Shown here: positions 2,459 to 30,810 of the stretch, in pieces
Position numbering within the stretch: position 1 is the first letter of the stretch
Layout of the letters: each line of letters starts with the position of its first letter
Origin: an uncultured Methanosarcinales archaeon
Lineage (GTDB): Archaea > Nanobdellota > Nanobdellia > Woesearchaeales > JAGWAF01
DNA: 64,000 bases
Direction: 5' to 3'
NCBI GenBank assembly: GCA_964414985.1
Contig: CAYPXA010000003.1
Coordinates: forward strand, 5,055-69,054
Notes under the pieces: model-generated
The model's database searches: none
The model's input: the letters and a program-made list of their open reading frames with translations, nothing else
What the model was told of the DNA's origin: nothing
Program-made: the position numbers and the translations under genes

Positions 2459-2497
2459 CATTTGGGGCGCAGCCTAAAACAGGGGAAAGCAGTAAAA

Positions 2498-5400: not shown

Positions 5401-6049
5401 ATTGAATGCAACATCATCACTTTCAAATGAGACTATAATTACTGCAGCGAATGCAACTTTGGCGCCTTCACTGAAGGATACTATTGAGCCTGAAGCAAAT
5501 GCAACTGTGGTGCCTGCAGTGAATGTAACCATTGAGCCTGAATTAAATGATACTTTGATACCAATTCCAAATGCAACTGCAAACATCTCATCAGAGCCAG
5601 AGCATGCAAATGAAACAGATGTTGAAGATGCAGAAAGCGAGTGGGGCATACCCACCCAGGAATGGAATGAGGACAAATCGCACGAGCTTGACCTTTCAGC
5701 ATACTTTTATGACCCTGATGACGACAGGCTTTTTTTCACCTATACAACCCTTGAGCACATACAGGTGAGCGTAGATGAGGAAGGCATTGCAACATTCACA
5801 CCAGAAAAAGACTGGCATGGCGAGGAAAAGGTCGCATTCACAGCAGAAGACGGCAAGGGAGGCCTGGCAAGCAGCAATGAATTCACATTAAGAGTTCTTG
5901 AATCTTCAGAAGAGCCTTTGATGGACAGGCTTAAGAGCAGCTTTGCAATGTACTCCAACTTTGTAATAGTTGGAATAATCCTGCTTGTATTAATCATACT
6001 TCTTATCGAGTTCAGGAAGCCGATACTTAAATTTCTTGAAGAAGACTAA
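2498..6049 (+). CDS. Giant (about 1180 aa) multi-TM surface protein with CARDB-like domains, two K/E/R-rich charged helical tracts and a glycosylation-sequon-rich stalk
   Basis: Probable ATG at 2498 (the track start at 2453 is TTG) gives signal peptide MKQTKKPILIIAAFLVILALSLQASA. There are several NTG..S-type beta-sandwich repeats. A TM helix near aa 490 is followed by a roughly 140-aa E/K/R/A tract (nt about 4010-4440), a TM cluster, a second KKQEKEE tract (nt about 5090-5290) and another TM. Nine N-x-S/T sequons occur in about 75 aa (nt about 5400-5630). A C-terminal TM helix is present. Confidence 0.55.
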   Translation: MKQTKKPILIIAAFLVILALSLQASALFEDFSASSSQTVYAGECSSSASRIAVKNTGAITSSYSVHLEGKAAAWATYAPSEFSLKPLESKDLFVYISAPCNAEGKYPLQTYIKTALGLEKALEQDIIITESKNIEITPKVYSSKIKPCGTASYKFELRNTGAFTETYEISASGDFADKTTFSQSIITLESGKSASFEMHVIPPCSKWGDYSLSFNTKAKLSGASSKTEGISLEIEKDYSFSMTFGKILPLSSMSLNSTSDEFEAYDGSYRFCEHESGYIPVLVENNAAFANTFYFGLKGEEWASLSGTSAEIPGNGAAYLNIIISPSMIANLDSQITVSARTDLGDARASAEKQVSLGICHIPEIAQSISRIKTYYNASFTEIPITNTGSEQTEYRLEAEGADWISITPESIELQPGEEGKAYLYLQPTNETVEGSYAIAVKAYPECSRPACSTAYAKQIEVSIKEPRLSNMIFDEYLPFTIIFFVLLAVIAVLMVLFAMHLEKTKDKRARAAEKRSIARQKAREAKEKARQKRMLERQKHIAARNAEKEKRRLARQKEKEKARAELEKKKLQKKAAKEKKNAEKAKLKAEKARIKAENAKAREKLAAERAKAKEEKRKALEQKSKEKEQKAQARKSAEKRAPSAPFKDSKLMKWLKLAILILIILAAAALLSAAVYYIIIFAAAVLQYKNYIIWGAIIAAIIIILLILIESAMHRFYRQASWKSIMPGQKKVLFVKWKKGLGEVIFQLKKPVQNARVSARKSFGHPVFLQAGGKVYQYFGVNKSFDNKDIEKVSFRFRVDKKWLARNNIPSDSVKLMRYNNESWTAADTRMISQASALGKYNYYEASLSSCSIFAITGKPEPKKQEKEEPKKKEKEELKKQEELRKQEKEELRKQEKEEKKAEAKKVAEKKKQQEKPKAPKKKKKTSLKWLWYTLIALILLVLLGIGIYYLAVNFDFSIFGSQAEEALNATSSLSNETIITAANATLAPSLKDTIEPEANATVVPAVNVTIEPELNDTLIPIPNATANISSEPEHANETDVEDAESEWGIPTQEWNEDKSHELDLSAYFYDPDDDRLFFTYTTLEHIQVSVDEEGIATFTPEKDWHGEEKVAFTAEDGKGGLASSNEFTLRVLESSEEPLMDRLKSSFAMYSNFVIVGIILLVLIILLIEFRKPILKFLEED

Positions 6050-19533: not shown

Positions 19534-19959
19534 TTGAAAAGATTAATTTGCGCTTCTGCAAAAGCGCAGGTGGCAATGGAATACCTAATCATTATAGGCT
19601 TTGTTGCCATAGTCACAATCCCACTCATTATCATTTTTGAGACAAACTCAAAGGACACTACAGACGAAATATCTTCTGCCCAGGTATACCAGATATCAAA
19701 GAGGATTGCAGACGGAGCAGAGACAGTATACTATCTGGGAGAGCCTTCAAGGCTTACAATAAAAGCATACCTGCCCGACAAAATAAGCCAAATCTCAATA
19801 GGCAGCCACGAAATCTCATTCAAAATGAGGAGAGGCAGCATTGAGGATGACATTGTGGTATACACTCCCATCAATATTTCAGGAAACCTCTCCAAAACCC
19901 AGGGCGTCCATTACATAAGCATTGAGAGCAGGGGGGGATATGTTTGGGTTTCAGGATAA
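19534..19959 (+). CDS. Class-III signal peptide (type IV pilin-like) protein 1
   Basis: N-terminus MKRLICASAKA|QVAMEYLIIIGFVAIVTIPLIIIF. Charged n-region, Q at +1, E at +5, then a roughly 20-aa hydrophobic stretch. Confidence 0.65.
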   Translation: MKRLICASAKAQVAMEYLIIIGFVAIVTIPLIIIFETNSKDTTDEISSAQVYQISKRIADGAETVYYLGEPSRLTIKAYLPDKISQISIGSHEISFKMRRGSIEDDIVVYTPINISGNLSKTQGVHYISIESRGGYVWVSG

Positions 19960-20354
19960 GCAAAACTTTTTTTGGAAAGTCGCAGGTTGCGATGGAATTT
20001 GTAATGCTTGTCATGCTGGCATTCATGATAATGGCTGTTTTTTCAGTCATTGCAAGGGACAGGATGATGGACCTAAGGCAGGAAGAAGAGTATGCATATC
20101 TTCAGGATGTTGTTTCATACGTCAATTCTGAAATACTGATTGCATCAAATGTTGAAGACGGCTATTCAAGGCAGTTTTCAATACCTTCAACACTCAACGG
20201 AGTAATCTACAACATCTCATTTTCGCAGGGATACATAACTGCAGAGTCAGTTCACCATGAGTATGCTGCAAGGACTGCGGAAGTTGAGGGAAGCATTGCA
20301 AAAGGCCAAAACACAATATCAAAGAAAAATGGGACTGTCTATATCAATAGCTGA
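19944..20354 (+). CDS. Class-III signal peptide pilin-like protein 2
   Basis: N-terminus ...TFFGKS|QVAMEFVMLVMLAFMIMAVFSVIA. Overlaps the previous gene by 16 nt. Confidence 0.6.
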   Translation: MGFRISKTFFGKSQVAMEFVMLVMLAFMIMAVFSVIARDRMMDLRQEEEYAYLQDVVSYVNSEILIASNVEDGYSRQFSIPSTLNGVIYNISFSQGYITAESVHHEYAARTAEVEGSIAKGQNTISKKNGTVYINS

Positions 20355-20826
20355 TTCATCAGGCAGAAAGGCTCAGGTGTGGTACATCGACTTTATGGTA
20401 GGCCTGCTTATAATGATAACAGCAGCAGTCATCTACTTTAATTTCTACGGCAATCTTTCAGATGATTCTGAATCAGACTGGCAGGAGCTTATTATAGACT
20501 CAAAATCAATAAGCTCTGCGCTTATGTCATCAGGAAGCCCGCCTGGCTGGAATGCATCAAATGCAAGCTCAATAGGAATTACAGACGGAAACTACAGGAT
20601 AAACACAACCAAGTTTGAATACCTCAAATCAATGGAATATGCAGATGCAAAGGCTGCATTCAAGACCCGGTTTGATTTTCACATTTTCATAAAAGGCGCT
20701 GACAACAGCATAACTGATGAATACGGGATAAACTCAACAAGCCCTAAGCTTCTTGTCCAGACTGCAAGGTTTGCAATCTACAATTCAACAATCCAGAGGG
20801 TGGTGCTGCACTTATGGAAAAATTAG
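20329..20826 (+). CDS. Pilin-like protein 3 (start revised to internal ATG)
   Basis: MGLSISIADSSGRKA|QVWYIDFMVGLLIMITAAVIYF. The track ORF 20257-20826 overlaps the upstream gene by about 100 nt, so the ATG at 20329 is the likelier start. Confidence 0.5.
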   Translation: MGLSISIADSSGRKAQVWYIDFMVGLLIMITAAVIYFNFYGNLSDDSESDWQELIIDSKSISSALMSSGSPPGWNASNASSIGITDGNYRINTTKFEYLKSMEYADAKAAFKTRFDFHIFIKGADNSITDEYGINSTSPKLLVQTARFAIYNSTIQRVVLHLWKN

Positions 20827-23800
20827 GCAGATTTTGCAGCAGGCTTTGCGCTAGGCATGGCAGGAAGGCAATATTCTTCACTCTCGACGCGCTTATAGCC
20901 TCAGGCATACTTCTCATAGGCCTTGTTCTTATTTCCTCAACCCATATAAACAGGCAGCCTACAGTGCACTTAAGCTATCTGTCATCAGACCTGATAGGAA
21001 CGCTTTCGGAGCTGAAGGTTGGCGAGATTGAGAATGATTATGTTGAGCAGCTGATTGCATCAGGCAGCATTGCAAGGCTGAACAACACAATTGCAGAGCA
21101 GATAGGCGAATTCTGGGCTGAAGACAGCATAGGCCTTGCTGAAAACCTTACAATGGAAATAATAGGAGATTCAATCCCCCAGAACTACGGCTATGCTGTC
21201 CTTGTAAACGGCGAATCAATACACTCAAGAAGCACAGGGCTCAACAACTCCCTGATAAGCAGCAGGAAAATAATTTCAGGATATGCAAAGCTTAGGCCTG
21301 TTTTCGGATTCACCTCAAAAGCATTCCTTACAGGAATAAAGAGCAGGAAATCATCATCAATAGCTTATTTTGGGGGATTTGTAGGCGAGGGAAACATAAC
21401 TGCAAAAATTGAGCTTCCCCAGAACATCACCAACATAACAGGAGTAATGCTTGAAGCATTGACAGGAACAGACGCAAAGTTTTACATCAACGGCCAGTAC
21501 TCCGGCTCTTTCCCAAAAGGCTCAGGCAACGGCTCATACATAAAGCCGAGCACCTGGAACATTGAAGAGCAGTACTGGAGCAGCCTCCACGGAGGGATGA
21601 ATAACTTTTCTGTAAGGTTTGAGCAGATAAACGAAAACTTCACTGCAAGCGGCCCAAAATACATTGGCGGAGGATATTTCAAGGTTTCATACATCACTCC
21701 TGACAACAAAGAGCTCGGAGTATCATATGCCGGAGGCACTGCTTCATCAAAATCCTGGCTTCCTGGAATAGACGGGCTTGTAAACCTTTACACCTCAATT
21801 TATGTGCCTGGCAACTTGAGCTCAATGAGTGTTTACCTTGACTTTGAAAGCAACTACACAACATACCTGACTATAGGCGGGACAACAGTGTATGAGGCAA
21901 AGGCAAACGGCTCTACAATTGTCAACATTTCAAATTCGCAGCTTGCCTCAATTTTCTCGAGTGATGGGGTGAGCTACAGCAGCATGAGCATGGAAACAAT
22001 TCCTGTAAGGCTTGGCCTGAAAAACATAACAAAAACAGGAGCTATGCTTGATTCAGTGCTTGTAACAGATGTAAGCGGAAGCATGGACTGGAGAATGGAC
22101 CAGGACAATGTTGACGGCACTGTAAGGCAGTGCAGCAGCAGCGACCTTAATCTAAATAGCACTCAACGGCTTAGCGTTGCAAAATGCGCTGGAAAAGATT
22201 TTGTTGACACAATACTTGGAACAGAAGGACCTCTTGTAGGCCTTGCAAGCTACCAAAGCTCAACATCCAGCACACTCTGGCTGACAAACAGCTCTGAAGA
22301 CCTTTATGATGAGATTGACAGCTATAATGCAGAAGGAGGAACATGCATATGCTGCGGAGTAAACAGCGCAGTCGAGATGCTGAAAAATGACTCCCAGGTA
22401 ATGATTGTTCCAAGAAGGGCATCTTCCTGGAGATATGATGACAATGACTTAAGTTCAGACCCTTCAGGCTGGACAAGCTTAGGGTTTTCAGATTCCTCTT
22501 GGAGTCAGGGAAGGGCTGCGCTCGGCAACGGCTACAGCGGGCTTAATACTGTGATAAGCAAGTATGAAGGATATTATTATTTCAGGAAAAAATTCAATCT
22601 CACAAATGCTTCAGACATCTCTTTTGCAAGGCTTTATGTTTATTCTGACGACGGCGCAAGCATCTACATAAACGGCAACCTTGTTGACAATGATATTCTC
22701 AACACTCACACAGCATCCTACTGGAACAGGCAGGTCAACATAAACACATCAATCCTGAATGACGGAGAAAACATAATTGCAGCCAAAGTCAGGAACAGGA
22801 GAAGCTGCTTTTTCACATGGTGCTGGGATACAAATGTTGCGTTTGACCTTGAGCTTGCAGGAAGCAGCACACAGCTTGCAGAGTCTGCGAAGAAAAAAGC
22901 GATGATAGTAATGACTGACGGAGAGGCAAACCAGGAGTGCGCTTTGCAGGGAACTACTGGAGACCTTAACAATGACGGGTATTCAGACACTGCAAAGGAT
23001 GATGCAATAAAAGCTGCATGCGATGCCTATAATGAATATGGGATTACAGTCTACACTGTTGGATTTGGGATAGGCGCAGATGATGACACTTTGGAATATA
23101 TGGCAAACTGCACTGACGGAGCGTACTTCAGCTCTTCAAATTATGAGGAGCTTAAAGAAACATACTTGATTATAGCAAATGAGCTGATTACATATTCTGA
23201 AACCCAGCGGTTCAACCAGACAATAACAGCAGAAACATCATTAAGCCCTGAATCATTCATAGAATTCAGCTACACTCCTGAAATTCCTCAGATGTCATAC
23301 GGAGAAGTTACTGTGACTGCATCAGGCGAGATTTTTGGAAACACAATCAGCAAAGGCTCAATATTCATTCCTGAAGGCGCAGTGCTTTCAGAGCTTTCTG
23401 CAACATCATATTCTGCAGACAAGTGGACAGACACAGTATTTGTCGAGAACAGCGCAGGAAAATCTGGAGTTTTCAACCTTAGCGATTTCGGAAGCTTTTA
23501 CCGGGACCTTGGCGATGCCTTCAAAGTAAGCATTCCAACATCAATTATAATTCCTGAAGAGCAGAACAACATAACTGTGCGCACAGGAATAAGCCCTGCA
23601 AACACAACAGGAGGCTCTGAATACAACAGGCTCATCTACACCTTAAGGATAGGCGGACTGCTTGATTACGGCGGAGTTTTTTCATATTCAGAAGGATGCA
23701 CATGGAGCCTTGAATTCGAGGACGGAACTTCAGGAGAGGTTAATGTGCCTTTAGATTATTCAGGAAACCAGACATGCTATTACTCAAATGCAACCTACGG

Positions 23801-23975
23801 AGAAGATGATGCTCTTGACGATGCAGCCTACAGGCTTTACAGCAGGCTTGACCTTGACTCAAACGGAAAGCTGGACATAAAGCTTGATGAAAACAACCTT
23901 GAGGCAGACACAATCTCAATTTCAGACGTCCCTTCGCTTTGGGGGCCTGCAGTTGTAGAGGTGAGAATATGGTGA
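20814..23975 (+). CDS. Large (1053 aa) putative pilus-tip adhesin: pilin-like N-terminal TM segment plus vWA domain and PA14-like lectin domain
   Basis: N-terminus GRKAIFFTLDALIASGILLIGLVLI. vWA MIDAS VLVTDVSGSMDW...MTDGEANQ...YTVGFG. PA14-like YYYFRKKFNLTNASDISFARLYVYSDDGASIYINGNLVDNDI. Confidence 0.6.
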   Translation: MEKLGRFCSRLCARHGRKAIFFTLDALIASGILLIGLVLISSTHINRQPTVHLSYLSSDLIGTLSELKVGEIENDYVEQLIASGSIARLNNTIAEQIGEFWAEDSIGLAENLTMEIIGDSIPQNYGYAVLVNGESIHSRSTGLNNSLISSRKIISGYAKLRPVFGFTSKAFLTGIKSRKSSSIAYFGGFVGEGNITAKIELPQNITNITGVMLEALTGTDAKFYINGQYSGSFPKGSGNGSYIKPSTWNIEEQYWSSLHGGMNNFSVRFEQINENFTASGPKYIGGGYFKVSYITPDNKELGVSYAGGTASSKSWLPGIDGLVNLYTSIYVPGNLSSMSVYLDFESNYTTYLTIGGTTVYEAKANGSTIVNISNSQLASIFSSDGVSYSSMSMETIPVRLGLKNITKTGAMLDSVLVTDVSGSMDWRMDQDNVDGTVRQCSSSDLNLNSTQRLSVAKCAGKDFVDTILGTEGPLVGLASYQSSTSSTLWLTNSSEDLYDEIDSYNAEGGTCICCGVNSAVEMLKNDSQVMIVPRRASSWRYDDNDLSSDPSGWTSLGFSDSSWSQGRAALGNGYSGLNTVISKYEGYYYFRKKFNLTNASDISFARLYVYSDDGASIYINGNLVDNDILNTHTASYWNRQVNINTSILNDGENIIAAKVRNRRSCFFTWCWDTNVAFDLELAGSSTQLAESAKKKAMIVMTDGEANQECALQGTTGDLNNDGYSDTAKDDAIKAACDAYNEYGITVYTVGFGIGADDDTLEYMANCTDGAYFSSSNYEELKETYLIIANELITYSETQRFNQTITAETSLSPESFIEFSYTPEIPQMSYGEVTVTASGEIFGNTISKGSIFIPEGAVLSELSATSYSADKWTDTVFVENSAGKSGVFNLSDFGSFYRDLGDAFKVSIPTSIIIPEEQNNITVRTGISPANTTGGSEYNRLIYTLRIGGLLDYGGVFSYSEGCTWSLEFEDGTSGEVNVPLDYSGNQTCYYSNATYGEDDALDDAAYRLYSRLDLDSNGKLDIKLDENNLEADTISISDVPSLWGPAVVEVRIW

Positions 23976-24940
23976 TTTCCAGGATGAGGTCAAGCAAAAA
24001 GGCGATATTCTTTACATTCATTGCAATAATGCTGATTGCAACAGCGCTTTTCTCATTTACAGTCCATTCAAGGTACAGCTTGAAGTCCAAGGCGCTTGTC
24101 ATAGAAACAAGGGTAAGCACAATGAACAGCTTCATGGCAGACATAGACAAGGACATAGAAAGAGGGCTTTTCATCTCATCGCACAGGTCTGTTTTATCTC
24201 TAATTGACTGGGTTTCGTCAGAAGGAAAATTCCTGAATGACACAGAATCCGGATTTGCAGAGCTGCTTCTGAACGGAACTCTTTACGGAGAGCAGCAGTC
24301 TTTGATGGAATCAACCACATTTCCAGACTGGGCTTCAAAGATGCAGCAGCAGGGAAGCAGGATAAACCTTCAGATAAGCATGGCTGTCCAAAATGTGTCT
24401 ATTGCACATTCAGATCCCTGGACTTTGAATGTACTCCTTGAAACTTTGGTTTATGTGAAAGATTCAACAGGCCTTGCAGAATGGAACACAACAAAATCAA
24501 TTTCTGCATTAGTCTCAATACTGGGCATGGAAGACCCGATTTATGCGCTTAAGACAGGCGGAAAAGCTGCAAACAAATTCAATATTACCCCATTTGAGCA
24601 TTTTGTTGAAGGAAATGACACTTCAAACCTTCAGAGCCATGCAGAGCACTCTTATTACATCAGCTGGAGCATGGCTCCCAGCTTCCTTATGAGGCTTGAA
24701 GGCAATTTCAGCACTTCAGAATATGGAATAGAAAGCCTTGTCAACCTGCAGGAGCTGATTGACCAGGGAATCCAGGTGCAGCAGCGCAGCATTGTTGACC
24801 ACATATACTGGTCAAACAGGACAATTTCATCATCTTTGATTTCAGGAATGCCTTCCTGGTTCAGGCTTGACAATGAGAACAATCCGGAAGAAGGCATGAC
24901 CAGGCTTGAGCGCTATGAAGCAGAGGACCTTGCATCATGA
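23969..24940 (+). CDS. Pilin-like / pseudopilin protein sharing KKAIFFT N-terminal motif with the adhesin
   Basis: ATG overlaps the adhesin stop (ATGGTGA). N-terminus MVISRMRSSKKAIFFTFIAIMLIATALFSF. Confidence 0.5.
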   Translation: MVISRMRSSKKAIFFTFIAIMLIATALFSFTVHSRYSLKSKALVIETRVSTMNSFMADIDKDIERGLFISSHRSVLSLIDWVSSEGKFLNDTESGFAELLLNGTLYGEQQSLMESTTFPDWASKMQQQGSRINLQISMAVQNVSIAHSDPWTLNVLLETLVYVKDSTGLAEWNTTKSISALVSILGMEDPIYALKTGGKAANKFNITPFEHFVEGNDTSNLQSHAEHSYYISWSMAPSFLMRLEGNFSTSEYGIESLVNLQELIDQGIQVQQRSIVDHIYWSNRTISSSLISGMPSWFRLDNENNPEEGMTRLERYEAEDLAS

Positions 24941-25009: not shown

Positions 25010-26164
25010 ATGGGAGATTGCTCGCTGATTGAGACAGGAGTAGACAAGCTTGTAACCCTTATTAGGAAGAACAAAAAGCTTTCTGTTGCAGAGGCTGCTA
25101 AGCAGCTTGGAGTTTCAACAGTTGTTGTTGAAGAGTGGGCTGACTTTCTTGAGGAAGAGGGGATAATAAGCATAGAATACAAGTTTACAACCCCCTATCT
25201 TGTTGAACGGCTTCTTACAAAGGATGAGCTTGTTAAAAAGGAGAAGGAATTCGGCGGCAAGAAGGAGGCTTTTGTAAGAAAGGCAGAGGTTGCGCTTGCG
25301 CTTCTTGACAGGGAAAGCGAGACATTCCAGAAAATACGCGAGCAGTTTGACGGGCTTAAGAAAGACTTAGGCACTGAAATCAAGAAGGTAAAGGGAGACT
25401 TAAAAGACCTTGAGAAATATGAGGAGCTGAAGAACAGGCTTGACCAGCAGATTCAGAGCCAGCAGAAGGAGTTCAAGGAAAGCATATCACAGGTTGAATC
25501 TCAGATTTCAAGGGAGCAGAAAAAGTATTCTGAAATACTCAAGGATATTGACCTTGAGGAAAAGCAGCTTGACAAGGAGAAGCTTGAGGCGCTTTCAATA
25601 AGGGAGCGCGAAAACCTCCTTATGCAGAAGCTTGCAGAATTCAGGAAAGGAATCGAGAAAATTGAGAAGAGCATAGAGTCTGAAGACAAGGTTGTATCCA
25701 GCTCTGAAGAGCACATCTCAAGGCTTAAGGAGCTTGCAGATTCTGTCAAGCAGAGCGTAGAGGAAAGAAGAAGCGAGCTTGAAAAGCTGTTTGAGCAGAA
25801 GAAAGAGCAGGAGAAGAACATTGCAAGGATGCAGGAAGAGATACTTGCAAAGGCAAAGGAGAAGAAGAGCGAGATAGATGCAAGAGTCCAGGATGGCCAG
25901 GGAGCATCTCACCAGTTTTCAGTATTCTTTGACAAAAAGGCAAGGGTCGAGGCAATGCTCAAAAAGCTTAACGACGAAAGGAACGACCTTGAGAAGGAGC
26001 TTATTCACCTTATACAGAAGGCAAAGGCGTTCAGCATAGCATCAAAGTCAGCTGCAGTTGGAAAGCACATGTCAGAGCTGAAGAAGACATTTGATTCAAT
26101 AGACAAGAAAAAAGGCCTGTTTGAGACAGAGCTGAAAAAGCTTGCAAGCTTCCTGAAAAGCTGA
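25010..26164 (+). CDS. Winged-helix (N-terminal) plus long coiled-coil protein embedded in pilus locus
   Basis: N-terminus LSVAEAAKQLGVSTVVVEEWADFLEEEGIISIE is HTH-like. The remaining roughly 300 aa show heptad-rich K/E/L coiled coil. Confidence 0.5.
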   Translation: MGDCSLIETGVDKLVTLIRKNKKLSVAEAAKQLGVSTVVVEEWADFLEEEGIISIEYKFTTPYLVERLLTKDELVKKEKEFGGKKEAFVRKAEVALALLDRESETFQKIREQFDGLKKDLGTEIKKVKGDLKDLEKYEELKNRLDQQIQSQQKEFKESISQVESQISREQKKYSEILKDIDLEEKQLDKEKLEALSIRERENLLMQKLAEFRKGIEKIEKSIESEDKVVSSSEEHISRLKELADSVKQSVEERRSELEKLFEQKKEQEKNIARMQEEILAKAKEKKSEIDARVQDGQGASHQFSVFFDKKARVEAMLKKLNDERNDLEKELIHLIQKAKAFSIASKSAAVGKHMSELKKTFDSIDKKKGLFETELKKLASFLKS

Positions 26165-26196: not shown

Positions 26197-27810
26197 ATGG
26201 CAAAAAAAAGAGGCGTTAAAAAGGTGCATGGCAGAGCCAGGCATCACCTGCAAAAGCGCAGCAGGCCCAAGGCTTCAAGGCATCCTGCGCGAAAGAGTGC
26301 AGCTGCAGGAAAGCAGTCTGAACACCAGCACTTTGGCAACGCAAAAGTCATAGACTCATACAAATTTACATCCCTAAACATGCCTATTTCTGTAAGGATT
26401 TTTATGGAGCAGGATGACTTTGTCCCAAGATACGAGCTCTCAATCAGCACAATAAGCAGAAACACTGAAATAATTCTTGAAAGGATAAGAAAGGAGCTTG
26501 TCCACAAAGTCAGCCTTGGAATGGTAGACATAACGCAGGCAAAGCGTTCAGGAATAATAGAAGACAAGTTCAGCGAGACAATAAAGGACCTTGTCCAGAA
26601 ATACTTTCCAGACATAGACGAGCAGACTTCAAACTTTCTTTCATCATACCTTATCCAGAAGTCATTAGGACTAGGCCAGATTGAAATACTTATGGACGAT
26701 GAGGCTCTTGAGGAGATTGCAGTAAACTCTGCAGAGGAGCCTGTATGGGTCTACCACAGAAAGCACGGCTGGCTCAAGACAAATATCAGAGTTGAAAGCG
26801 AGGAAAAGATAAGGCACTATGCATCAATGATAGGCAGGAAAGTCGGAAGGCAGATTACAATACTTAATCCTCTTATGGACGCAAACCTTGACACAGGCGA
26901 CAGGGTAAACGCCACTCTTATGCCAATTTCAAATGTCGGAAACACAATAACACTTCGAAAGTTTGCGACAAAGCCATGGACAATAACTTCATTCATAAAA
27001 GCAGGAGCGATATCAGCTGCTGCTGCAGCGCTCATATGGCAGGCAGTGCATTACGAGATGTCTGCGCTGATTGCAGGAGGAACTGCTTCAGGAAAGACAT
27101 CCATGCTCAACGTTGTTGCGAACTTCTTTCCCCCAAACCAGAGGATAATCTCAATTGAAGACACAAGGGAAATAAAGCTTCCTGCGTTTCTGCACTGGCT
27201 TCCGATGGTCACAAGGCTTGCAAATCCTGAAGGAAAGGGAGAGATAAGCATGCTTGACCTGCTTGTAAACTCCTTGAGGCAGAGGCCTGACAGGATTATA
27301 GTCGGAGAAATAAGGAAGAAAAGGGAAGCTGAAGTCCTTTTTGAGGCAATCCACACAGGCCATTCAGTCTATGCAACAGTCCACGCAAACGATGTCAAGG
27401 AGACAATAACAAGGCTTACAAACCCTCCAATTGAAATTCCAAAGTCAATGCTTCCTGCAGTATCGCTTATAATTGTGCAGTACAGGAACAGGAGGACAGG
27501 CAACAGGAGGACATTCCAGATTGCTGAAATACTGCCTGACTCATCTGCAAACATACTTATGCAGCACAACACAAAGACTGACAAACTCGAAACAGTAAGC
27601 AAGAGCAAGGTGCTTACAAAAGAGCTTGAGCTTTACACAGGCACATCAGCAGCTGCATTTGCAAAGGAAGTTGCTGAAAAAGAGGCAGTCCTGAAATGGC
27701 TTGTGAAGCAGGACATAGACGGAGTTGACAATGTAGGCAGGGTAATTGCAGAGTACTACACAAACAAGGAGAACCTAATGAAGTATGTGCGCCACAACAG
27801 AAAAATGTAG
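26197..27810 (+). CDS. Type II/IV secretion-system ATPase (VirB11/FlaI/TadA-like) with basic N-terminal extension
   Basis: Walker A GGTASGKTS. Walker B and Asp-box RIIVGEIR. His-box AIHTGHSVYATVHAN. The first roughly 60 aa are K/R/H-rich (MAKKRGVKKVHGRARHHLQKRSRPKASRHP). Confidence 0.8.
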   Translation: MAKKRGVKKVHGRARHHLQKRSRPKASRHPARKSAAAGKQSEHQHFGNAKVIDSYKFTSLNMPISVRIFMEQDDFVPRYELSISTISRNTEIILERIRKELVHKVSLGMVDITQAKRSGIIEDKFSETIKDLVQKYFPDIDEQTSNFLSSYLIQKSLGLGQIEILMDDEALEEIAVNSAEEPVWVYHRKHGWLKTNIRVESEEKIRHYASMIGRKVGRQITILNPLMDANLDTGDRVNATLMPISNVGNTITLRKFATKPWTITSFIKAGAISAAAAALIWQAVHYEMSALIAGGTASGKTSMLNVVANFFPPNQRIISIEDTREIKLPAFLHWLPMVTRLANPEGKGEISMLDLLVNSLRQRPDRIIVGEIRKKREAEVLFEAIHTGHSVYATVHANDVKETITRLTNPPIEIPKSMLPAVSLIIVQYRNRRTGNRRTFQIAEILPDSSANILMQHNTKTDKLETVSKSKVLTKELELYTGTSAAAFAKEVAEKEAVLKWLVKQDIDGVDNVGRVIAEYYTNKENLMKYVRHNRKM

Positions 27811-27930: not shown

Positions 27931-28674
27931 ATGAAATACACGCCTGTTGAATTTGTAAGGCGCGCAGCATTCACCTCATTCTACATGACCACAATGATAA
28001 TCTTCCTTCTTGGAGCGCTTTTCATGAAGCTTGATATACTTTTGAGGGTGCTCTATTTTGTATTCCCCCTGCTTTTTGTAGGGATGTTTTTTTACTTTAT
28101 GAAGCTGCCAGAGGCAAAGATTATCAGGCGCGAAAAGGACATTGACAAGGAGATAGTGTTTGCAGGAAGGTTCCTTGTTGTCGAGCTTGAAAGCGGAGTG
28201 CCATTGTACAACGCGCTTGTCAATGTCTCTAAAAGCTACCCTACAATAGGAAAGGCAATAAACGAGATAATTGAGGATGTAGACCTTGGAGCAACAATCG
28301 AAGAGGCGATTGAGGAGGCAATTGAGCTCACGCCCTCGCAGGATTTCAGGAAGCTGCTCTGGCAGATAATGAATTCACTCAAGACAGGCGCAGATGTTTC
28401 ATCATCCCTCGGAGCAGTTGTTGACCAGATTACAAGGGAGCAGATAATTGCTGTAAAGGAATACGGCAGGAAGCTAAACCCCCTTGCAATGTTCTACATG
28501 ATGATTGCAGTAATAGTGCCATCATTGGGAGTTACAATGCTGATAGTGCTTTCAAGCTTTCTTTCATTTGAGATGGGGCTTTCATCACTTATGGTGCTTG
28601 TGCTTGCCATAGCCTTAATCCAGTTCATGTTCATAGCAATAATCCGGTCGTCAAGGCCTTCAGTTGAAATCTAA
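27931..28674 (+). CDS. TadB/FlaJ-like membrane protein (single T2SSF domain)
   Basis: N-terminal TM helices, a cytoplasmic T2SSF-like domain (LYNALVNVSKSYPTIGKAINEII...) and C-terminal TM helices. Confidence 0.65.
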   Translation: MKYTPVEFVRRAAFTSFYMTTMIIFLLGALFMKLDILLRVLYFVFPLLFVGMFFYFMKLPEAKIIRREKDIDKEIVFAGRFLVVELESGVPLYNALVNVSKSYPTIGKAINEIIEDVDLGATIEEAIEEAIELTPSQDFRKLLWQIMNSLKTGADVSSSLGAVVDQITREQIIAVKEYGRKLNPLAMFYMMIAVIVPSLGVTMLIVLSSFLSFEMGLSSLMVLVLAIALIQFMFIAIIRSSRPSVEI

Positions 28675-28675
28675 A

Positions 28676-29812
28676 ATGGAAAATCAGGCAAAAAATCCAG
28701 GAGAGAAGAAAAAGACAGGCTGGATAAGGCAGGAGGCTGAAAAGCTGACCCATTTTAAAGAGCATTACGAGCGCGCCAAGAAGAAAGAGAAGGAGATTAA
28801 GGAGAAGCGCAAGGATAAGATAAGGCAGCAGCGCAAGTACATGCTTAGGAACTACATTGAAAAGGCAGGATTAAGCATAAAGGAGGAAAGGGTTACAAAG
28901 ACTCTTTTCAATTTCTGCATTATAATCAACCTTATTATTTCCGCATACCTGATTTACTTTTTTTCATTTGAGTCTGATTCAAACCTTGTTTTTGTAGTCA
29001 TAGTCATGGCAATAGTATGGGCGCTGATTTTTTTTGGAGTGCTTTTCCTTGTCTGGCTGCTGTTTTACCTGATGCTTGACTTTAGGATATTCCAGAGAAA
29101 GACAAGCATAGAGGATGTCCTTGCAGACTTCCTCCAATTGACATCTGCAAACATCAGGGCTGGAATGCCTATTGACAGGGCGCTGTGGTTTTCAGTCAGG
29201 CCTAGGTTCGGGGTTCTTGCAAACGAGATTGAGATTGTTGCAAAGGAGACAATGAGCGGAAAGGACCTTGAGACTGCGCTTACAGACTTCACAAAAAAGT
29301 ACGACTCGCCTCTTCTTAAAAGGTCGATGAGCCTGCTTATTGAAGGCCTTAGGGCTGGCGGAGAAGTTGGGGAGCTCCTCAACAAGATTTCAACAAACAT
29401 ATCAGAATCAAGGATAATGAAGAAGGAGATGTCAGCAAACGTAACAACTTATGTAATCTTCATAACCTTTGCGACAGTTGCTGCAGCGCCTGTGCTTTTT
29501 GCGCTCTCAAACCAGCTCCTGCACATAATACATTCAATAGTCTCAACAATATCGCTTCCTTCCGGAGGTGTTGCAGGCTTTGGCGCTTCTTTCACAACTC
29601 TTGCAATAAAGCCTTCAGACTTCAGGCTTTTTTCAGTCATAATGCTTACAGTAACCTCATTTTTTTCAGCTGCAATAGTTGCAATCATAAGAAGGGGCAG
29701 CGTAAAGGCAGGCCTGAAGTACATTCCGTCATTCATAATCACTGCAGTAATCCTGTTTTACATTTCAGACTTCTTTTTGGGAAAAGTGCTGGGGTCTATG
29801 CTTTTGTCGTAG
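28676..29812 (+). CDS. TadC/FlaJ-like membrane protein (second T2SSF domain), K/E-rich N-terminus
   Basis: ATG 1 nt after the upstream stop (the track start at 28664 is TTG). T2SSF-like segment ANIRAGMPIDRALWFSV...GELLNKIS. Multiple TM helices. Confidence 0.65.
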   Translation: MENQAKNPGEKKKTGWIRQEAEKLTHFKEHYERAKKKEKEIKEKRKDKIRQQRKYMLRNYIEKAGLSIKEERVTKTLFNFCIIINLIISAYLIYFFSFESDSNLVFVVIVMAIVWALIFFGVLFLVWLLFYLMLDFRIFQRKTSIEDVLADFLQLTSANIRAGMPIDRALWFSVRPRFGVLANEIEIVAKETMSGKDLETALTDFTKKYDSPLLKRSMSLLIEGLRAGGEVGELLNKISTNISESRIMKKEMSANVTTYVIFITFATVAAAPVLFALSNQLLHIIHSIVSTISLPSGGVAGFGASFTTLAIKPSDFRLFSVIMLTVTSFFSAAIVAIIRRGSVKAGLKYIPSFIITAVILFYISDFFLGKVLGSMLLS

Positions 29813-29853: not shown

Positions 29854-30282
29854 ATGGCCAAAAAAGGACAGGCAGCAATGGAGTTTTTGATGACCTATGG
29901 CTGGGCTATACTTGCAATTCTTGCAGCAATAGGCGCGCTTGCTTATTTCGGTGTTTTGACTCCAACAAAGTTCCTGCCTGAAAAGTGCGTTTTTCCGCAG
30001 GGAATGGCGTGCCTTGACTTTCAGGTTGAGGCTTCAGATGCAAAGTTCGTGATACAGCCTGCTTTTGGCGCAGACGCATTCATTTACAATGCAACAATCG
30101 CAGAGTGCGATGCAGTCTTTATTGACAGGATTGTGGACAGCCAGCTTATGCTCAACTTTACGAACTGCGACAACGGAATTGAGGGAGACCAGTTCAGGGA
30201 AAAGCTTGTTGTGACATATTCTTTAAGGGGAAGCCCGATTGTCAAGCAGATGGATGCAGACGTAACCACGAATGTAAGATAA
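29854..30282 (+). CDS. Epd-like type IV pilin (class-III signal peptide, KGQ motif)
   Basis: MAKKG|QAAMEFLMTYGWAILAILAAIGALAYFGVL. Q+1/E+5. Resembles methanogen Epd pilin signal peptides. Confidence 0.75.
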   Translation: MAKKGQAAMEFLMTYGWAILAILAAIGALAYFGVLTPTKFLPEKCVFPQGMACLDFQVEASDAKFVIQPAFGADAFIYNATIAECDAVFIDRIVDSQLMLNFTNCDNGIEGDQFREKLVVTYSLRGSPIVKQMDADVTTNVR

Positions 30283-30294
30283 ATCTTTTCTGTC

Positions 30295-30309
30295 AAAACA
30301 TTTATATAT
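30295..30309 (+). promoter_or_regulatory. BRE/TATA promoter AAAACATTTATATAT upstream of pilin gene 30370
   Basis: Same motif as 29818. Downstream SD-like AAAAGAGGTG at about 30351. Confidence 0.5.
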
Positions 30310-30369
30310 CAGTATATTAATTTGTATATCAGAACAATCAATCTATACATAAAAGAGGTGAATAGCAAA

Positions 30370-30810
30370 ATGTTCAAAAAAGGACAGGCAGCAATGGAGT
30401 TCTTGATGACCTACGGCTGGGCAATCCTTGTTGTGCTTGCAGCAATCGGCGCTCTTGCATATTTCGGAGTATTGAGCCCTGACAGGTTTCTGCCAGAGAA
30501 GTGCACACTGCCATCAGGCATGGCGTGCTTAGACTTTACAGCAAGCTCAAGCCAGATTCAGTTGGTTATCCAGAACAGCGGCGGATTTGACATGAATAAT
30601 GTAAACGTGTCACTTGACGTTGAAGGCGGAAGTGTTGTTTCATGCTCACCAGCAGACGACTCAACATTGACTGATTCAGAGCAGGACACATTTACCTGCA
30701 CAGGCACATTTGCATCCGGAAAGCTTAAGGCTGACTTGAATGTTGCATATGTCAATGCACAGACACAATTGAGCCATACCAAAGCCGGCGAGCTTATTGC
30801 AAAGATATAA
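30370..30810 (+). CDS. Epd-like type IV pilin paralog (class-III signal peptide, KGQ motif)
   Basis: MFKKG|QAAMEFLMTYGWAILVVLAAIGALAYFGVL. N-terminal 35 aa nearly identical to the preceding pilin. Confidence 0.75.
   Translation: MFKKGQAAMEFLMTYGWAILVVLAAIGALAYFGVLSPDRFLPEKCTLPSGMACLDFTASSSQIQLVIQNSGGFDMNNVNVSLDVEGGSVVSCSPADDSTLTDSEQDTFTCTGTFASGKLKADLNVAYVNAQTQLSHTKAGELIAKI

What the first reader, a model, noticed from the sequence alone, without database searches (positions are those of the whole stretch)
20814..23975. 1053-aa pilin-anchored vWA + PA14-like putative tip adhesin
The N-terminal segment GRKAIFFTLDALIASGILLIGLVLI looks like a prepilin-type anchor. It is followed by a vWA domain with intact MIDAS (DxSxS...T...D) and a PA14-like beta-sandwich (YVYSDDGASIYINGNLVDND) of the kind used for carbohydrate binding. 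Such tip-adhesin minor pilins are known in bacteria (PilC/PilY1 and vWA tip pilins of Gram-positives) but are rarely described in archaea.
Basis: partly seen in the sequence, partly recalled or inferred. Interest (0 to 1): 0.6.

Follow-up and report, generated by a model that had tools for sequence, protein, structure and literature searches.

The report
Archaeal pilus adhesin with swappable lectin insert
This gene in a tiny symbiotic (DPANN) archaeon encodes a giant pilin-like protein that probably sits on a type IV pilus and carries a metal-dependent adhesion domain interrupted by a sugar-binding-type module, and relatives swap that module in and out, making it a good candidate for how these archaea recognise what they attach to.

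Summary

- **N-terminus:** it is a class III (prepilin-type) signal, not a Sec signal. [KR][KR][G/A] precedes the roughly 21-residue hydrophobic helix in about 95% of 119 homologs, and Asp at +6 is invariant.
- **Operon:** the gene is fourth of five consecutive pilin-like genes. They sit in a conserved Epd/Tad-like ("System 1") type IV filament operon with an ATPase, a split platform protein and two putative major pilins.
- **vWA domain:** it is genuine, and all five MIDAS residues are conserved in 114-120 of 120 homologs.
- **"PA14-like" segment:** it is a separate 160-aa β-jelly-roll inserted into the vWA fold (residues 528-691). By profile and fold it is galactose-binding-domain-like (GH2-N / rhamnosidase-N / CBM67-like), not PA14.
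- **Family:** about 1,000 representatives and 406 genome loci, all in DPANN archaea. The insertion point is a hot-spot holding 0, about 160, 400, 620 or more than 850 aa, including Laminin-G, MAM and pentraxin-like modules and nested domains.
- **Closest known:** bacterial modular minor pilins TadG/CpaL and S. sanguinis PilB.

I class it as a new archaeal variant of a known kind. Pilus incorporation, signal cleavage and ligand are inferred, not shown.

The parts
20814..23975 (+). Gene for the 1053-aa class III-signal, vWA-containing modular pilin-like protein (the finding)
   Evidence: ORF; identical gene call on two other contigs; homolog family
20814..20939 (+). Class III (prepilin-type) signal. 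Leader is residues 1-19 ending R17-K18-A19. Predicted cleavage is before I20. Hydrophobic alpha1N helix is residues 20-42, with F22, T23 and invariant D25 (+6).
   Evidence: Position statistics over 119 homologs; helix 20-42 in the AF2 model
20970..22022 (+). N-terminal scaffold: helical bundle (residues 53-117) plus beta-rich domains (127-403). Conserved family-wide, with no Pfam or PDB sequence match.
   Evidence: AF2 model; conservation; no Pfam hits in 11 members
22047..22382 (+). vWA domain, first half (residues 412-523): beta1 with MIDAS D419-x-S421-x-S423, the minor variable loop 'site 1' (424-452), and T510
   Evidence: Pfam VWA_2 positions 2-98; MIDAS conservation; site-1 length variation
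22395..22886 (+). Inserted galactose-binding-domain-like beta-jelly-roll (residues 528-691), closest to rhamnosidase-N / CBM67 / GH2-N. Carries the S611-D612-D613-G614 motif.
   Evidence: Pfam Bac_rhamnosid_N at 25.5 bits; NCBIfam rhamnosidase E 1.3e-6; profile vs 3W5M E 1.1e-6; domain model pLDDT 83; Foldseek top 50 all GH2-N
22887..23189 (+). vWA domain, second half (residues 692-792): beta4 ending in MIDAS D702-G703, then the remaining alpha/beta units
   Evidence: Pfam VWA positions 102-171; AF2 secondary structure
23196..23972 (+). C-terminal beta-rich scaffold (residues 795-1053) with conserved Cys962/Cys988. The extreme C-terminus is highly conserved (P1040, W1043-G1044-P1045, strand 1046-1052, W1053-COOH).
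   Evidence: Conservation; AF2 model
19534..19959 (+). Small pilin-like gene (141 aa), signal AKA|QVAMEY with Glu at +5: putative minor pilin
   Evidence: Weak Pfam Class_IIIsignal hit; ortholog N-termini; synteny 50/80
19944..20354 (+). Small pilin-like gene (136 aa), signal GKS|QVAMEF with Glu at +5: putative minor pilin
   Evidence: synteny 44/80
20329..20826 (+). Pilin-like gene (165 aa from the internal Met), signal RKA|QVWYID with Asp at +6
   Evidence: Gene call; ortholog N-termini; synteny 56/80
23972..24940 (+). Pilin-like gene (322 aa), signal KKA|IFFTFIAI with no acidic residue at +5/+6. Its start overlaps the vWA stop codon. No known family.
   Evidence: synteny 65/80; no PDB or Pfam match
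25010..26164 (+). Cytoplasmic HTH plus long coiled-coil protein (384 aa), conserved between the pilin block and the ATPase
   Evidence: Weak Pfam HTH hits; synteny 33/80
26197..27810 (+). Type IV filament assembly ATPase (FlaI/TadA-like)
   Evidence: Pfam T2SSE E 2.4e-36; NCBIfam FlaI-like E 1.7e-76 and TadA family E 1.5e-55
27931..29812 (+). Two adjacent platform-protein genes (T2SSF domain; 247 aa and 382 aa), the TadB/TadC-like split platform
   Evidence: Pfam T2SSF E 1.8e-17 and 6.9e-14; synteny 41-42/80
29854..30810 (+). Two tandem paralogous pilin genes (142 aa and about 146 aa; 66% identical), signal KKG|QAAMEFLMTYGWAIL: putative major pilins
   Evidence: synteny 28/80

Best explanation
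The gene encodes a modular minor pilin (pseudopilin) of an archaeal Epd/Tad-like ("System 1") type IV pilus in a DPANN archaeon, most likely from the Woesearchaeota/Nanoarchaeota group.

Proposed mechanism:
1. The protein is inserted into the membrane through its N-terminal hydrophobic helix.
2. A prepilin peptidase removes the short basic leader after A19 (inferred).
3. The mature protein joins the four neighbouring pilin-like proteins through bundling of their alpha1N helices. This forms the complex that initiates the filament and ends up at its distal tip, as the TadE/TadF/TadG(CpaL) and GspHIJK complexes do in bacteria (inferred by analogy).
4. The roughly 1000-residue extracellular part presents two binding devices. 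One is a vWA domain whose intact MIDAS would bind a divalent cation and an acidic ligand residue. The other is a CBM67/GH2-N-like jelly-roll inserted into the vWA between the helix after T510 and strand beta4. Its invariant Asp-Asp/Asn-Gly motif aligns with the Ca2+/sugar site of CBM67, suggesting glycan binding (inferred).
5. Across the family this insertion point gains, loses and nests lectin-type modules on a constant scaffold. That would retune what the pilus sticks to, plausibly host-cell surface glycoproteins of these episymbionts.

Shown here: sequence features, domain folds, conservation, synteny and insert variability.
Inferred: cleavage, incorporation into the pilus, tip position and ligands.
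For: Class III signal:
- Across 119 homologs, -3 is K/R in 113, -2 is K/R in 111, -1 is G/A/S in 117, +3 is F in 116 and +6 is D in all 119.
- Leaders are mostly 4-9 aa, followed by about 21 uncharged residues.
- There is a single hydrophobic segment.

Context:
- There are five consecutive genes with class III-type N-termini, in three flavours: E at +5, D at +6, and none.
- The operon also has an ATPase, two T2SSF platform genes and two QAAMEF-type pilins.
- This gene order recurs in the 80 loci examined. Hits: p333 65/80, p189 56/80, ATPase 43/80, with many contigs truncated.
- A split platform with a DPANN/methanogen distribution matches System 1 / Epd (preprint 10.64898/2026.04.22.720090).

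vWA and MIDAS:
- Pfam VWA is above its cut-off.
- MIDAS is conserved in 114-120 of 120 homologs.
- The AF2 model has pLDDT 85.9.
- Foldseek finds ITIH1 (E 6e-11), PilB (E 3e-8) and Mfa5 (E 2.5e-7).

Insert:
- Homologs without the insert have a contiguous vWA.
- Family and fold assignment rests.
- D612-D613 align with D179-N180 of SaRha78A CBM67. The Asp-Asp pair is described as the Ca2+/sugar site of this lectin family (PMC11512411).

Extracellular character: 27 N-glycosylation sequons against 13.9+/-3.1 expected, and conserved cysteine pairs.

Variable hot-spot:
- Insert lengths range from 12 to 857 aa, with Laminin_G_3, MAM, pentraxin, DUF2341 and Reelin-B modules and nesting.
- At least 22 state changes are needed on the scaffold tree, against 61 when labels are shuffled.

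Precedents:
- CpaL is a Tad minor pilin with a MIDAS vWA split by a beta-rich domain (PMC12607857).
- TadG/KilN are the large modular subunits of heterotrimeric Tad tips (PMC12075869).
- PilB is a vWA modular pilin that acts as an adhesin (PMC8179133).
Against: - No A24 prepilin peptidase gene is in the window. A crude motif scan of the flanks of 80 related loci also found none. Makarova et al. 2016 noted that two nanoarchaea lack a recognisable one.
- The protein itself gets no Pfam Class_IIIsignal or N-methyl hit.
- The acidic residue is Asp at +6, not the canonical Glu at +5.
- In the AF2 model the N-terminal helix is only 23 residues long. A low-confidence linker and a helical bundle follow it, not a canonical pilin head. 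The Foldseek match to PilB probably comes from the vWA module.
- By the connectivity of the alpha/beta fold, the insert leaves the face opposite the MIDAS. The two sites may therefore not cooperate.
- GH2-N-type jelly-rolls are often structural rather than sugar-binding.
- There are no experimental data for any member, and no cultured organism is known to carry the locus.
Confidence: 0.6

Rival explanations
1. The protein is mainly an assembly-initiation ("licensing") subunit, the archaeal analogue of GspK/PilK/CpaL. Its conserved extreme C-terminal beta-strand would complete the minor-pilin complex. The bulky vWA and insert part would be dispensable for assembly and act, if at all, as a mechanosensor rather than a specific adhesin.
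For: - The extreme C-terminus is among the most conserved parts (P1040, W1043, G1044, P1045, W1053). Nearly all homologs end at the same position, and the model has a terminal strand at 1046-1052.
- In Caulobacter, the C-terminal strand of CpaL is required for piliation, while its middle ~470 residues are largely dispensable (PMC12918778).
- CpaL and PilY1 vWA domains are implicated in surface sensing (PMC12607857).
Against: - This is not exclusive of adhesion. It explains the scaffold but not why MIDAS is invariant in ~1000 representatives, nor why lectin-type modules are repeatedly gained, lost and nested at one site.
- The neighbour p333, which lacks the acidic residue, is an equally good candidate for the GspK-like cap.
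Confidence: 0.2
2. The N-terminal helix is an uncleaved signal-anchor. The protein would be a membrane-tethered cell-surface adhesin or pilus-base anchor, co-expressed with the pilus but never part of the filament. This was the older idea for TadG.
For: - There is a single N-terminal hydrophobic segment.
- No prepilin peptidase was found nearby.
- Weak NCBIfam and PDB similarity to BatA-type membrane-anchored vWA proteins.
- Makarova et al. 2016 cite the hypothesis that TadG anchors the pilus to the membrane.
Against: - G/A/S is near-invariant immediately before the hydrophobic segment, after two basic residues (117/119). That is the signature of A24 peptidase substrates and has no obvious role in a plain signal-anchor.
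- The same motif class is shared with the operon's bona fide pilin-like genes.
- Recent work places TadG/CpaL at the tip.
Confidence: 0.15
3. It is a Sec-secreted soluble enzyme or carbohydrate-active protein, suggested by the rhamnosidase/GH2-like segment, and is unrelated to the pilus.
For: Weak NCBIfam and PDB hits to alpha-L-rhamnosidase and GH2 enzymes.
Against: - The hits cover only the non-catalytic N-terminal jelly-roll of those enzymes. No catalytic domain is detected.
- The hydrophobic segment is about 21 residues long, with conservation on its N-terminal side and no conserved AxA-type site after it.
- The gene is tightly embedded in the pilin block, with overlapping start and stop codons.
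Confidence: 0.03

Closest known systems
TadG / CpaL, the large minor pilin-like subunit of bacterial Tad (type IVc) pili (e.g. Caulobacter crescentus CpaL, Myxococcus KilN)
   Same: - N-terminal prepilin-type helix followed by a large extracellular body.
- In CpaL, a MIDAS-bearing vWA fold is split by a beta-rich inserted domain.
- It is encoded with small minor pilins next to a TadA-type ATPase and a split TadB/TadC-type platform.
- It has a variable modular distal domain ("adaptable tips").
- It has a conserved extreme C-terminus.
- The Tad system is thought to derive from the archaeal Epd-like system.
   Different: - No detectable sequence homology. There are no Pfam TadE/Tad hits.
- The N- and C-terminal scaffold domains are unmatched.
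- The protein is about 1.7 times larger than CpaL.
- Five rather than three pilin-like genes lie in the block.
- By the residue ranges given for CpaL (148-203 | 384-626), the insertion site in the vWA differs from the one here (after the T510 helix).
- The host is archaeal, so there is no secretin or outer membrane.
PilB of Streptococcus sanguinis, a bimodular type IV minor pilin with a vWA module (PDB 7B7P/7BA2)
   Same: - Class III signal protein carrying a MIDAS vWA module that mediates adhesion.
- Structural match at Foldseek E 3e-8 to 8e-7.
- Same concept of a functional module grafted onto a pilin.
   Different: - PilB has a canonical bacterial N-methyl pilin module and an uninterrupted vWA at its C-terminus.
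- The survey in that paper covered bacteria only, with no mention of archaea.
- In the present protein the vWA sits in the middle of a larger, unique scaffold and hosts a nested lectin-type domain.
Epd pilus / archaeal TFF "System 1" (Methanococcus maripaludis epd cluster)
   Same: - Archaeal locus with one ATPase, two platform genes and several class III-signal pilins.
- It is reported in methanogens and DPANN.
[quoted passage not shown]
   Different: - The census preprint does not mention any vWA or MIDAS component (0 occurrences).
- Homology between this protein and the Methanococcus Epd proteins was not tested here.
CBM67 / rhamnosidase-N / GH2-N sugar-binding jelly-rolls (S. avermitilis SaRha78A 3W5M; Pleurotus ostreatus lectin 6T1D)
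   Same: - The inserted domain shares fold and weak but significant sequence similarity.
- Its invariant D-D/N-G motif aligns with the Ca2+/sugar-binding D179-N180 of CBM67.
   Different: - Here the module is not attached to a glycosidase. It is inserted into a vWA fold of a pilin-like protein.
- Sugar binding is untested.
- The best structural matches are GH2-N domains, which often have no lectin function.
PilY1/PilC tip adhesins and Gram-positive sortase-pilus tip adhesins (RrgA, SpaC) / Mfa5
   Same: - These are pilus-associated vWA/MIDAS adhesins.
- RrgA and SpaC have beta-rich insertions in the vWA (from the literature).
- Mfa5 is a Foldseek hit.
   Different: - PilY1 is not a pilin and is defined by a C-terminal beta-propeller, which is not detected here.
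- Sortase pilins use LPXTG and isopeptide chemistry, which is absent here.

Membership tests
Class III signal peptide / type IV pilin-like proteins (archaeal) | Short basic leader ending in [K/R]-[G/A/S] immediately before the hydrophobic segment | tested here: met
   Query has R17-K18-A19|I20. In 119 homologs, -2 is K/R in 111 and -1 is G/A/S in 117. Leaders are mostly 4-9 aa.
Class III signal peptide / type IV pilin-like proteins (archaeal) | About 20 hydrophobic residues forming the N-terminal alpha1N helix of the mature protein | tested here: met
   About 21 uncharged residues follow the motif. Helix 20-42 in the AF2 model.
Class III signal peptide / type IV pilin-like proteins (archaeal) | Acidic residue at +5 of the mature protein | tested here: inconclusive
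   Invariant Asp at +6, not Glu at +5 (119/119). Neighbour p189 also has D at +6. pil141, pil136 and pil142 have E at +5. p333 has none.
Class III signal peptide / type IV pilin-like proteins (archaeal) | Match to curated signal or pilin profiles (Pfam Class_IIIsignal, N_methyl) | tested here: not met
   No such hit for this protein at E<=1. Only neighbour pil141 gives a sub-threshold Class_IIIsignal hit.
Class III signal peptide / type IV pilin-like proteins (archaeal) | Encoded with a type IV filament ATPase and platform protein | tested here: met
   T2SSE ATPase and two T2SSF genes lie 2-5 kb downstream on the same strand. Synteny is conserved.
Class III signal peptide / type IV pilin-like proteins (archaeal) | Cleavage by an A24 prepilin peptidase and incorporation into a filament | not testable with these tools
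   No peptidase gene in the window or in locus flanks by a crude motif scan. This needs biochemistry or a complete genome.
von Willebrand factor A domain with MIDAS | Profile match above the curated threshold, and a Rossmann-like alpha/beta fold | tested here: met
   PF00092 at 30.8 bits against 23.8. Alternating beta/alpha elements in the model. Foldseek finds ITIH1, PilB, Mfa5 and 4FX5.
von Willebrand factor A domain with MIDAS | Complete MIDAS: DxSxS, Thr and Asp | tested here: met
   D419, S421, S423, T510 and D702 are conserved in 120, 114, 119, 116 and 118 of 120 homologs.
von Willebrand factor A domain with MIDAS | Divalent metal binding and metal-dependent ligand binding | not testable with these tools
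   Requires recombinant protein.
PA14 domain | Match to the PA14 profile (PF07691) | tested here: not met
   No PA14 hit for the query at E<=1. Only 2 of 16 relatives give E~0.02.
PA14 domain | PA14 fold among the closest structural neighbours | tested here: not met
Galactose-binding-domain-like jelly-roll (Bac_rhamnosid_N / GH2_N / CBM67) | Profile match | tested here: met
   Bac_rhamnosid_N at 25.5 bits against a cut-off of 25 for the isolated domain. NCBIfam rhamnosidase E 1.3e-6. Domain profile vs 3W5M E 1.1e-6. The match is marginal but consistent.
Galactose-binding-domain-like jelly-roll (Bac_rhamnosid_N / GH2_N / CBM67) | Fold | tested here: met
   Domain model has pLDDT 83 and pTM 0.80. 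Foldseek TM 0.5-0.62, E down to 1.6e-6, against GH2-N domains.
Galactose-binding-domain-like jelly-roll (Bac_rhamnosid_N / GH2_N / CBM67) | Ca2+/sugar-binding Asp-Asp(Asn) site of CBM67-type lectins | tested here: inconclusive
   D612-D613 (D invariant, D/N, G invariant in 16 sequences) align with D179-N180 of SaRha78A. The role of these residues is taken from PMC11512411 and from my recollection of Fujimoto 2013, which could not be opened.
TadG/CpaL-type Tad minor pilin | Architecture: prepilin-type N-terminus, large body with MIDAS vWA, conserved C-terminal strand, adjacent small minor pilins, TadA-type ATPase and split platform | tested here: met
   compared with the descriptions.
TadG/CpaL-type Tad minor pilin | Sequence homology to TadE/TadG families (Pfam TadE, Tad) | tested here: not met
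   No such Pfam or NCBIfam hits in the query or in 10 diverse members. Direct comparison with the CpaL sequence or model was not possible.
TadG/CpaL-type Tad minor pilin | [quoted passage not shown] | not testable with these tools
   No multimer prediction or model coordinates were available. Only conservation of the C-terminus is shown.
PilY1/PilC tip adhesin | C-terminal PilC/PilY1 beta-propeller domain; not itself a pilin | tested here: not met
   No Neisseria_PilC/PilY1 profile hit. The protein has its own class III-type N-terminus.

The most novel reading that the evidence does not exclude
This family would be the archaeal counterpart, and possibly the evolutionary precursor, of TadG/CpaL. 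It would be the tip-located licensing subunit of Epd/Tad-type pili in DPANN archaea, and it would also serve as their host-recognition adhesin. In this reading one loop of the vWA domain acts as a cassette site where lectin-type modules (CBM67-like, Laminin-G, MAM, pentraxin-like and an unknown nested domain) are inserted, nested and lost. The insert type would set the host or surface range of these obligate episymbionts.
Probability: 0.3. Interest if true: 0.8.

Novelty: new variant of a known kind. Interest (0 to 1): 0.6.

Why it matters
How DPANN archaea, which are ultrasmall and mostly obligate episymbionts, find and hold on to their hosts is largely unknown. Type IV pili are suspected, but no adhesin has been pinned down.

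This family gives a concrete and widespread candidate. It has about 1,000 sequence clusters and 406 species-level genome loci. Its anatomy can be tested directly:
- a MIDAS site to mutate;
- a lectin-type insert to put on glycan arrays;
- natural insert variants to correlate with host or habitat.

It also extends the "modular pilin" principle from bacteria to archaea. The principle was established for S. sanguinis PilB and for Tad TadG/CpaL. Here it appears in the Epd-like system from which bacterial Tad pili are thought to derive. That bears on whether large tip or licensing subunits were an ancestral feature of type IV filaments.

The domain-in-domain(-in-domain) insertion hot-spot is also a neat case of modular protein evolution.

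Tried and rejected
- **PA14 assignment:** rejected.
- **Sec signal peptide:** rejected on the position of the conserved motif and the length of the hydrophobic segment.
- **Glycosidase function:** rejected, because only the non-catalytic jelly-roll matches.
- **PilY1-like propeller:** not found.
- **Prepilin peptidase:** a search of the window by motif and by Pfam on membrane-protein ORFs found none. A crude GxGD motif scan of multi-TM ORFs in 80 related loci also found none. This is not proof of absence.
- **Scaffold domains:** Pfam scans of the N- and C-terminal scaffold domains in 11 members gave nothing.
- **Neighbour p333:** its profile has no PDB-sequence or Pfam match.
- **Nested extra domain** of the 1250-aa homologs: no Pfam or PDB-sequence match.
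- **Paralogy among operon proteins:** only the N-terminal helices of p333 and the vWA protein resemble each other, and pil142 and pil162 are paralogs.
- **Organism naming:** no rRNA or tRNA in the window, and public sources give no name. Placement rests on the labels of related MAGs. Several of these read "uncultured Methanosarcinales" from automated submissions and are probably mislabelled; that is my judgement.
- **Sigma-70 promoter and terminator scan:** run, but not meaningful for an archaeon.

Full report
Window 20814..23975 (+) is a 1053-codon ATG ORF. An independent gene caller called it identically on two other public contigs.
- GRKAIFFTLDALIASGILLIGLVLI at residues 16-40;
- a vWA domain with DxSxS (D419, S421, S423), T510 and D702;
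- YVYSDDGASIYINGNLVDND at residues 607-626.

The gene is not a chance ORF. It has more than 200 homologs in a word-indexed search and about 1,007 representatives of 50%-identity clusters at E<=1e-30 in an exhaustive profile search. It also has 406 loci in one-genome-per-species bacterial and archaeal genomes. Those genomes are labelled Woesearchaeota, Nanoarchaeota/Nanoarchaeia, Aenigmatarchaeota, Micrarchaeia, Altiarchaeota and Nanohalarchaeota. Some automated "uncultured Methanosarcinales" labels appear among them, and I regard these as unreliable.

The window has no rRNA or tRNA, and public sources give the protein no name. Placement in DPANN therefore rests on its relatives.

**2. The N-terminus is a class III (prepilin-type) signal, not a Sec signal.** I anchored 119 homologs on the invariant Asp25. 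The positions before the hydrophobic stretch are:

| Position | Residue | Count (of 119) |
|---|---|---|
| -3 | K/R | 113 |
| -2 | K/R | 111 |
| -1 | G/A/S | 117 |

After them comes h-(F/Y)-F(116)-T/S(112)-x-D(119), then about 21 uncharged residues. The leader is usually only 4-9 residues long. The conserved motif therefore sits on the N-terminal side of the hydrophobic segment, which is where A24 prepilin peptidases cut. No conserved small-x-small site follows the segment. The AF2 model puts a helix at residues 20-42, and it is the only hydrophobic segment.

Three caveats apply. The protein gets no Pfam Class_IIIsignal hit. The acidic residue is Asp at +6 rather than Glu at +5. No prepilin peptidase gene was found in the window or near related loci.

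**3. Context: a conserved Epd/Tad-like type IV filament operon.** All of the following genes lie on the + strand, mostly with overlapping or abutting start and stop codons:

| Gene | Coordinates | Signal / identity |
|---|---|---|
| pil141 | 19534 | AKA\|QVAMEY |
| pil136 | 19944 | GKS\|QVAMEF |
| p189 | 20329 | RKA\|QVWYID |
| the vWA protein | 20814 | RKA\|IFFTLD |
| p333 | 23972 | KKA\|IFFTFIAI |
| coiled-coil/HTH protein | 25010 | cytoplasmic |
| FlaI/TadA-like ATPase | 26197 | T2SSE E 2.4e-36 |
| two T2SSF platform genes | 27931, 28664 | split platform |
| two tandem pilins | 29854, 30322 | KKG\|QAAMEFLMTYGWAIL |

tblastn of these proteins against 80 related loci shows the same order again and again. 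Counts are p333 65/80, p189 56/80, pil141 50/80, ATPase 43/80 and platform 41-42/80, and many contigs end inside the locus.

Ortholog N-termini show three conserved flavours of signal:
- Glu at +5 in pil141, pil136 and the QAAMEF pilins;
- Asp at +6 in p189 and the vWA protein;
- no acidic residue in p333, which is reminiscent of GspK/PilX-type caps.

One ATPase, a split platform, many class III pilins and a DPANN/methanogen distribution together match the "System 1" (Epd-type) archaeal filaments of a 2026 census preprint (10.64898/2026.04.22.720090). That preprint mentions adhesin-like and galactose-binding-domain proteins in the Methanococcus epd cluster, but it never mentions a vWA component. 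Makarova et al. 2016 discuss vWA proteins only as cytoplasmic regulators and cite bacterial TadG.

**4. Anatomy of the protein.** An AF2 model built from 68 homologs has mean pLDDT 85.9. Its parts are:
- helix 20-42;
- a helical bundle at 53-117;
- beta-rich domains at 127-403;
- the first vWA half at 412-523;
- a beta-sandwich at 528-685;
- the second vWA half at 694-792;
- a beta-rich C-terminal region at 808-1052, ending in a strand at 1046-1052.

Pfam sees the vWA in two pieces separated by about 160 residues. Family members that lack this segment have one contiguous vWA match, for example P0076 residues 398-588 on profile positions 4-172. The sandwich is therefore an insertion into the vWA fold. 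The MIDAS residues are conserved in 114-120 of 120 sequences.

Foldseek of the whole model against the PDB returns vWA/MIDAS adhesion proteins: ITIH1 (E 6e-11), the S. sanguinis modular pilin PilB (E 3e-8) and the type V pilus tip protein Mfa5. It also returns GH2 and rhamnosidase enzymes, through the insert.

The N- and C-terminal scaffold domains match no Pfam family in 11 members.

The protein looks extracellular. It has 27 N-glycosylation sequons against 13.9+/-3.1 expected from composition, and eight conserved cysteines.

**5. The "PA14-like" segment is a galactose-binding-domain-like jelly-roll.**
- Scanned alone, the insert passes the Pfam threshold for Bac_rhamnosid_N (25.5 against 25 bits).
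- NCBIfam aligns residues 512-659 to a Streptomyces rhamnosidase model (E 1.3e-6).
- A 16-sequence profile of the insert hits the S. avermitilis rhamnosidase 3W5M at E 1.1e-6, over two adjacent beta-sandwich domains that include the CBM67 region.
- The same profile hits the CBM67-like Pleurotus ostreatus lectin at about 1e-3.
- A separate AF2 model of the insert has pLDDT 83 and pTM 0.80. Its top 50 Foldseek matches are all the N-terminal sugar-binding jelly-roll of GH2 glycosidases, at TM 0.5-0.62.
- PA14 shows up only as E 0.02 hits in 2 of 16 relatives.

S611-D612-D613-G614 (D invariant, D/N, G invariant) aligns with D179-N180 of CBM67. An Asp-Asp pair is described as the Ca2+/sugar-binding site in this lectin family (PMC11512411). 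A carbohydrate-binding role is plausible but unproven, since GH2-N domains are often structural.

From the connectivity (helix 512-523, then the insert, then strand beta4), the insert should leave the vWA on the face opposite the MIDAS. This is my inference from the general alpha/beta topology.

**6. A family-wide insertion hot-spot.** In 120 homologs the N-terminal part (about 380-420 aa) and the C-terminal part (about 260 aa) are nearly constant in length. The segment between the two vWA halves varies widely:

| Segment length | Number of homologs (approx.) |
|---|---|
| 12-15 aa (no insert) | 39 |
| about 175 aa (the query type) | 17 |
| 260-300 aa | 6 |
| about 380-425 aa | 41 |
| about 620 aa | 9 |
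| up to 857 aa | a few |

- **Longer inserts:** they keep the two halves of the query-type sandwich and nest extra domains in the loop at about query residues 575-587.
- **Different modules:** other inserts are Laminin_G_3 (E 1e-20 to 1e-27), pentraxin, MAM, DUF2341 and Reelin-B-like.
- **Second variable loop:** a smaller one lies directly after the MIDAS DxSxS. It is 28 aa as a rule, 56-80 aa in 26 homologs and about 120 aa in 5.
- **Phylogeny:** on a neighbour-joining tree of the scaffold, insert class needs at least 22 changes, against 60.8+/-2.6 for shuffled labels. The query's clade sits beside a no-insert clade. Insert content is therefore inherited but repeatedly remodelled.
- **Rate of change:** within the query's subtype, the insert is about as conserved as the scaffold (identities). 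The variation is in domain content, not hypermutation.

**7. Mechanism proposed.** The closest characterised analogues are bacterial.
- *Caulobacter* CpaL is a Tad minor pilin fused to a MIDAS vWA that is itself split by a beta-rich domain. It is modelled at the tip with CpaJ and CpaK (PMC12607857).
- TadG/KilN are the large modular subunits of heterotrimeric Tad tip complexes with "adaptable" distal domains (PMC12075869).
- PilB of S. sanguinis is a vWA modular pilin that binds host proteins (PMC8179133).
- A 2026 preprint shows that the extreme C-terminal beta-strand of CpaL is needed to license pilus assembly, while its middle part sits atop the tip (PMC12918778).

The present family shares these features: a prepilin-type N-terminus, a large middle body and a very conserved extreme C-terminus (P1040, WGP1043-1045, W1053). 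I therefore propose that, together with the four neighbouring pilin-like proteins, it forms the initiation/tip complex of the pilus. In that complex it would display a MIDAS site and a lectin-type module for attachment.

For episymbiotic DPANN archaea the obvious target is the host cell surface. Type IV pilus genes of Nanoarchaeota have been noted for high non-synonymous diversity (PMC6142677).

Cleavage, filament incorporation, tip position and ligands are all inferences.

**8. Rivals.**
- (a) It is mainly an assembly-licensing subunit, with adhesion secondary. This is compatible with the data. It does not explain the invariant MIDAS or the module swapping.
- (b) It is an uncleaved signal-anchor surface protein or base anchor. 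The near-invariant G/A at -1 disfavours this, but it is not excluded while no peptidase has been found.
- (c) It is a secreted glycosidase-like protein. I reject this, because only the non-catalytic jelly-roll matches.

**9. Novelty.** The kind is known in bacteria: a modular minor pilin with a vWA adhesion module.

I found no description of such a protein in archaea. The term vWA is absent from the 2026 archaeal census. The only two papers combining DPANN, von Willebrand and pili mention each term only once or twice, in works on archaeal post-translational modification and Pyrococcus archaellum regulation. The modular-pilin survey covered bacteria only.

The scaffold domains are unannotated, and the nested insertion hot-spot is distinctive. 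I rate it a new variant of a known kind.

Noticed in passing
window 23972-24940 (+): The 322-aa pilin-like neighbour p333 has a class III-type N-terminus (KKA|IFFTFIAI), but orthologs conserve no acidic residue at +5/+6, as in the GspK/PilX-type tip caps of bacteria. It is the most consistently co-located gene (65/80 loci) and matches no Pfam family or solved structure.
   Followed up: partly
window 25010-26164 (+): A 384-aa cytoplasmic protein with an N-terminal winged-helix/HTH-like region and a long coiled coil sits between the pilin block and the ATPase. It recurs there in 33/80 related loci, so it may be a regulator or cytoplasmic machine component.
   Followed up: partly
window 29854-30282 and 30322-30810 (+): Two tandem paralogous pilin genes (66% identical) have an almost invariant mature N-terminus, QAAMEFLMTYGWAIL, across DPANN loci. 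They are probably the major pilins of the filament.
   Followed up: partly
window 17273-19096 (-): A 607-aa protein with an N-terminal signal-like segment, a Lon protease (S16) C-terminal proteolytic domain, a C-terminal hydrophobic segment and a lysine-rich tail is divergently oriented just upstream of the pilus operon. A homolog lies near 9 of 80 related loci.
   Followed up: partly
homologs P0023, P0026, P0078, P0108 etc.; related loci such as L024, L027, L043: The 1250-1480-aa relatives carry one or two copies of a ~230-aa domain (with a GDDGWDxD motif) nested inside the jelly-roll insert. This makes a domain-in-domain-in-domain arrangement. The nested domain has no Pfam or PDB-sequence match.
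   Followed up: partly
homologs P0009-P0011, P0014, P0083: A second, smaller variable site lies directly after the MIDAS DxSxS loop (query residues 424-452). It carries ~120-aa insertions of unknown fold in a few members and 56-80 aa in 26 others. By topology this site, unlike the main one, should lie on the MIDAS face.
   Followed up: no
window 1133-2416 and 2453-6049 (+): Two further predicted surface proteins (427 aa and 1198 aa) have Ig-like domains (NPCBM_assoc, FixG_C, Big_9, Cadherin_5). The larger one also has several hydrophobic segments. They add to a cell-surface-rich gene content in this window.
   Followed up: no
window 59510-61879 (-): A 789-aa ORF coincides with the strongest strand-composition skew in the window (GC skew -0.27 and AT skew -0.38 at 60001-62000). 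It starts with a Lys/Glu/Pro/Ala-rich low-complexity region. It was not examined further.
   Followed up: no
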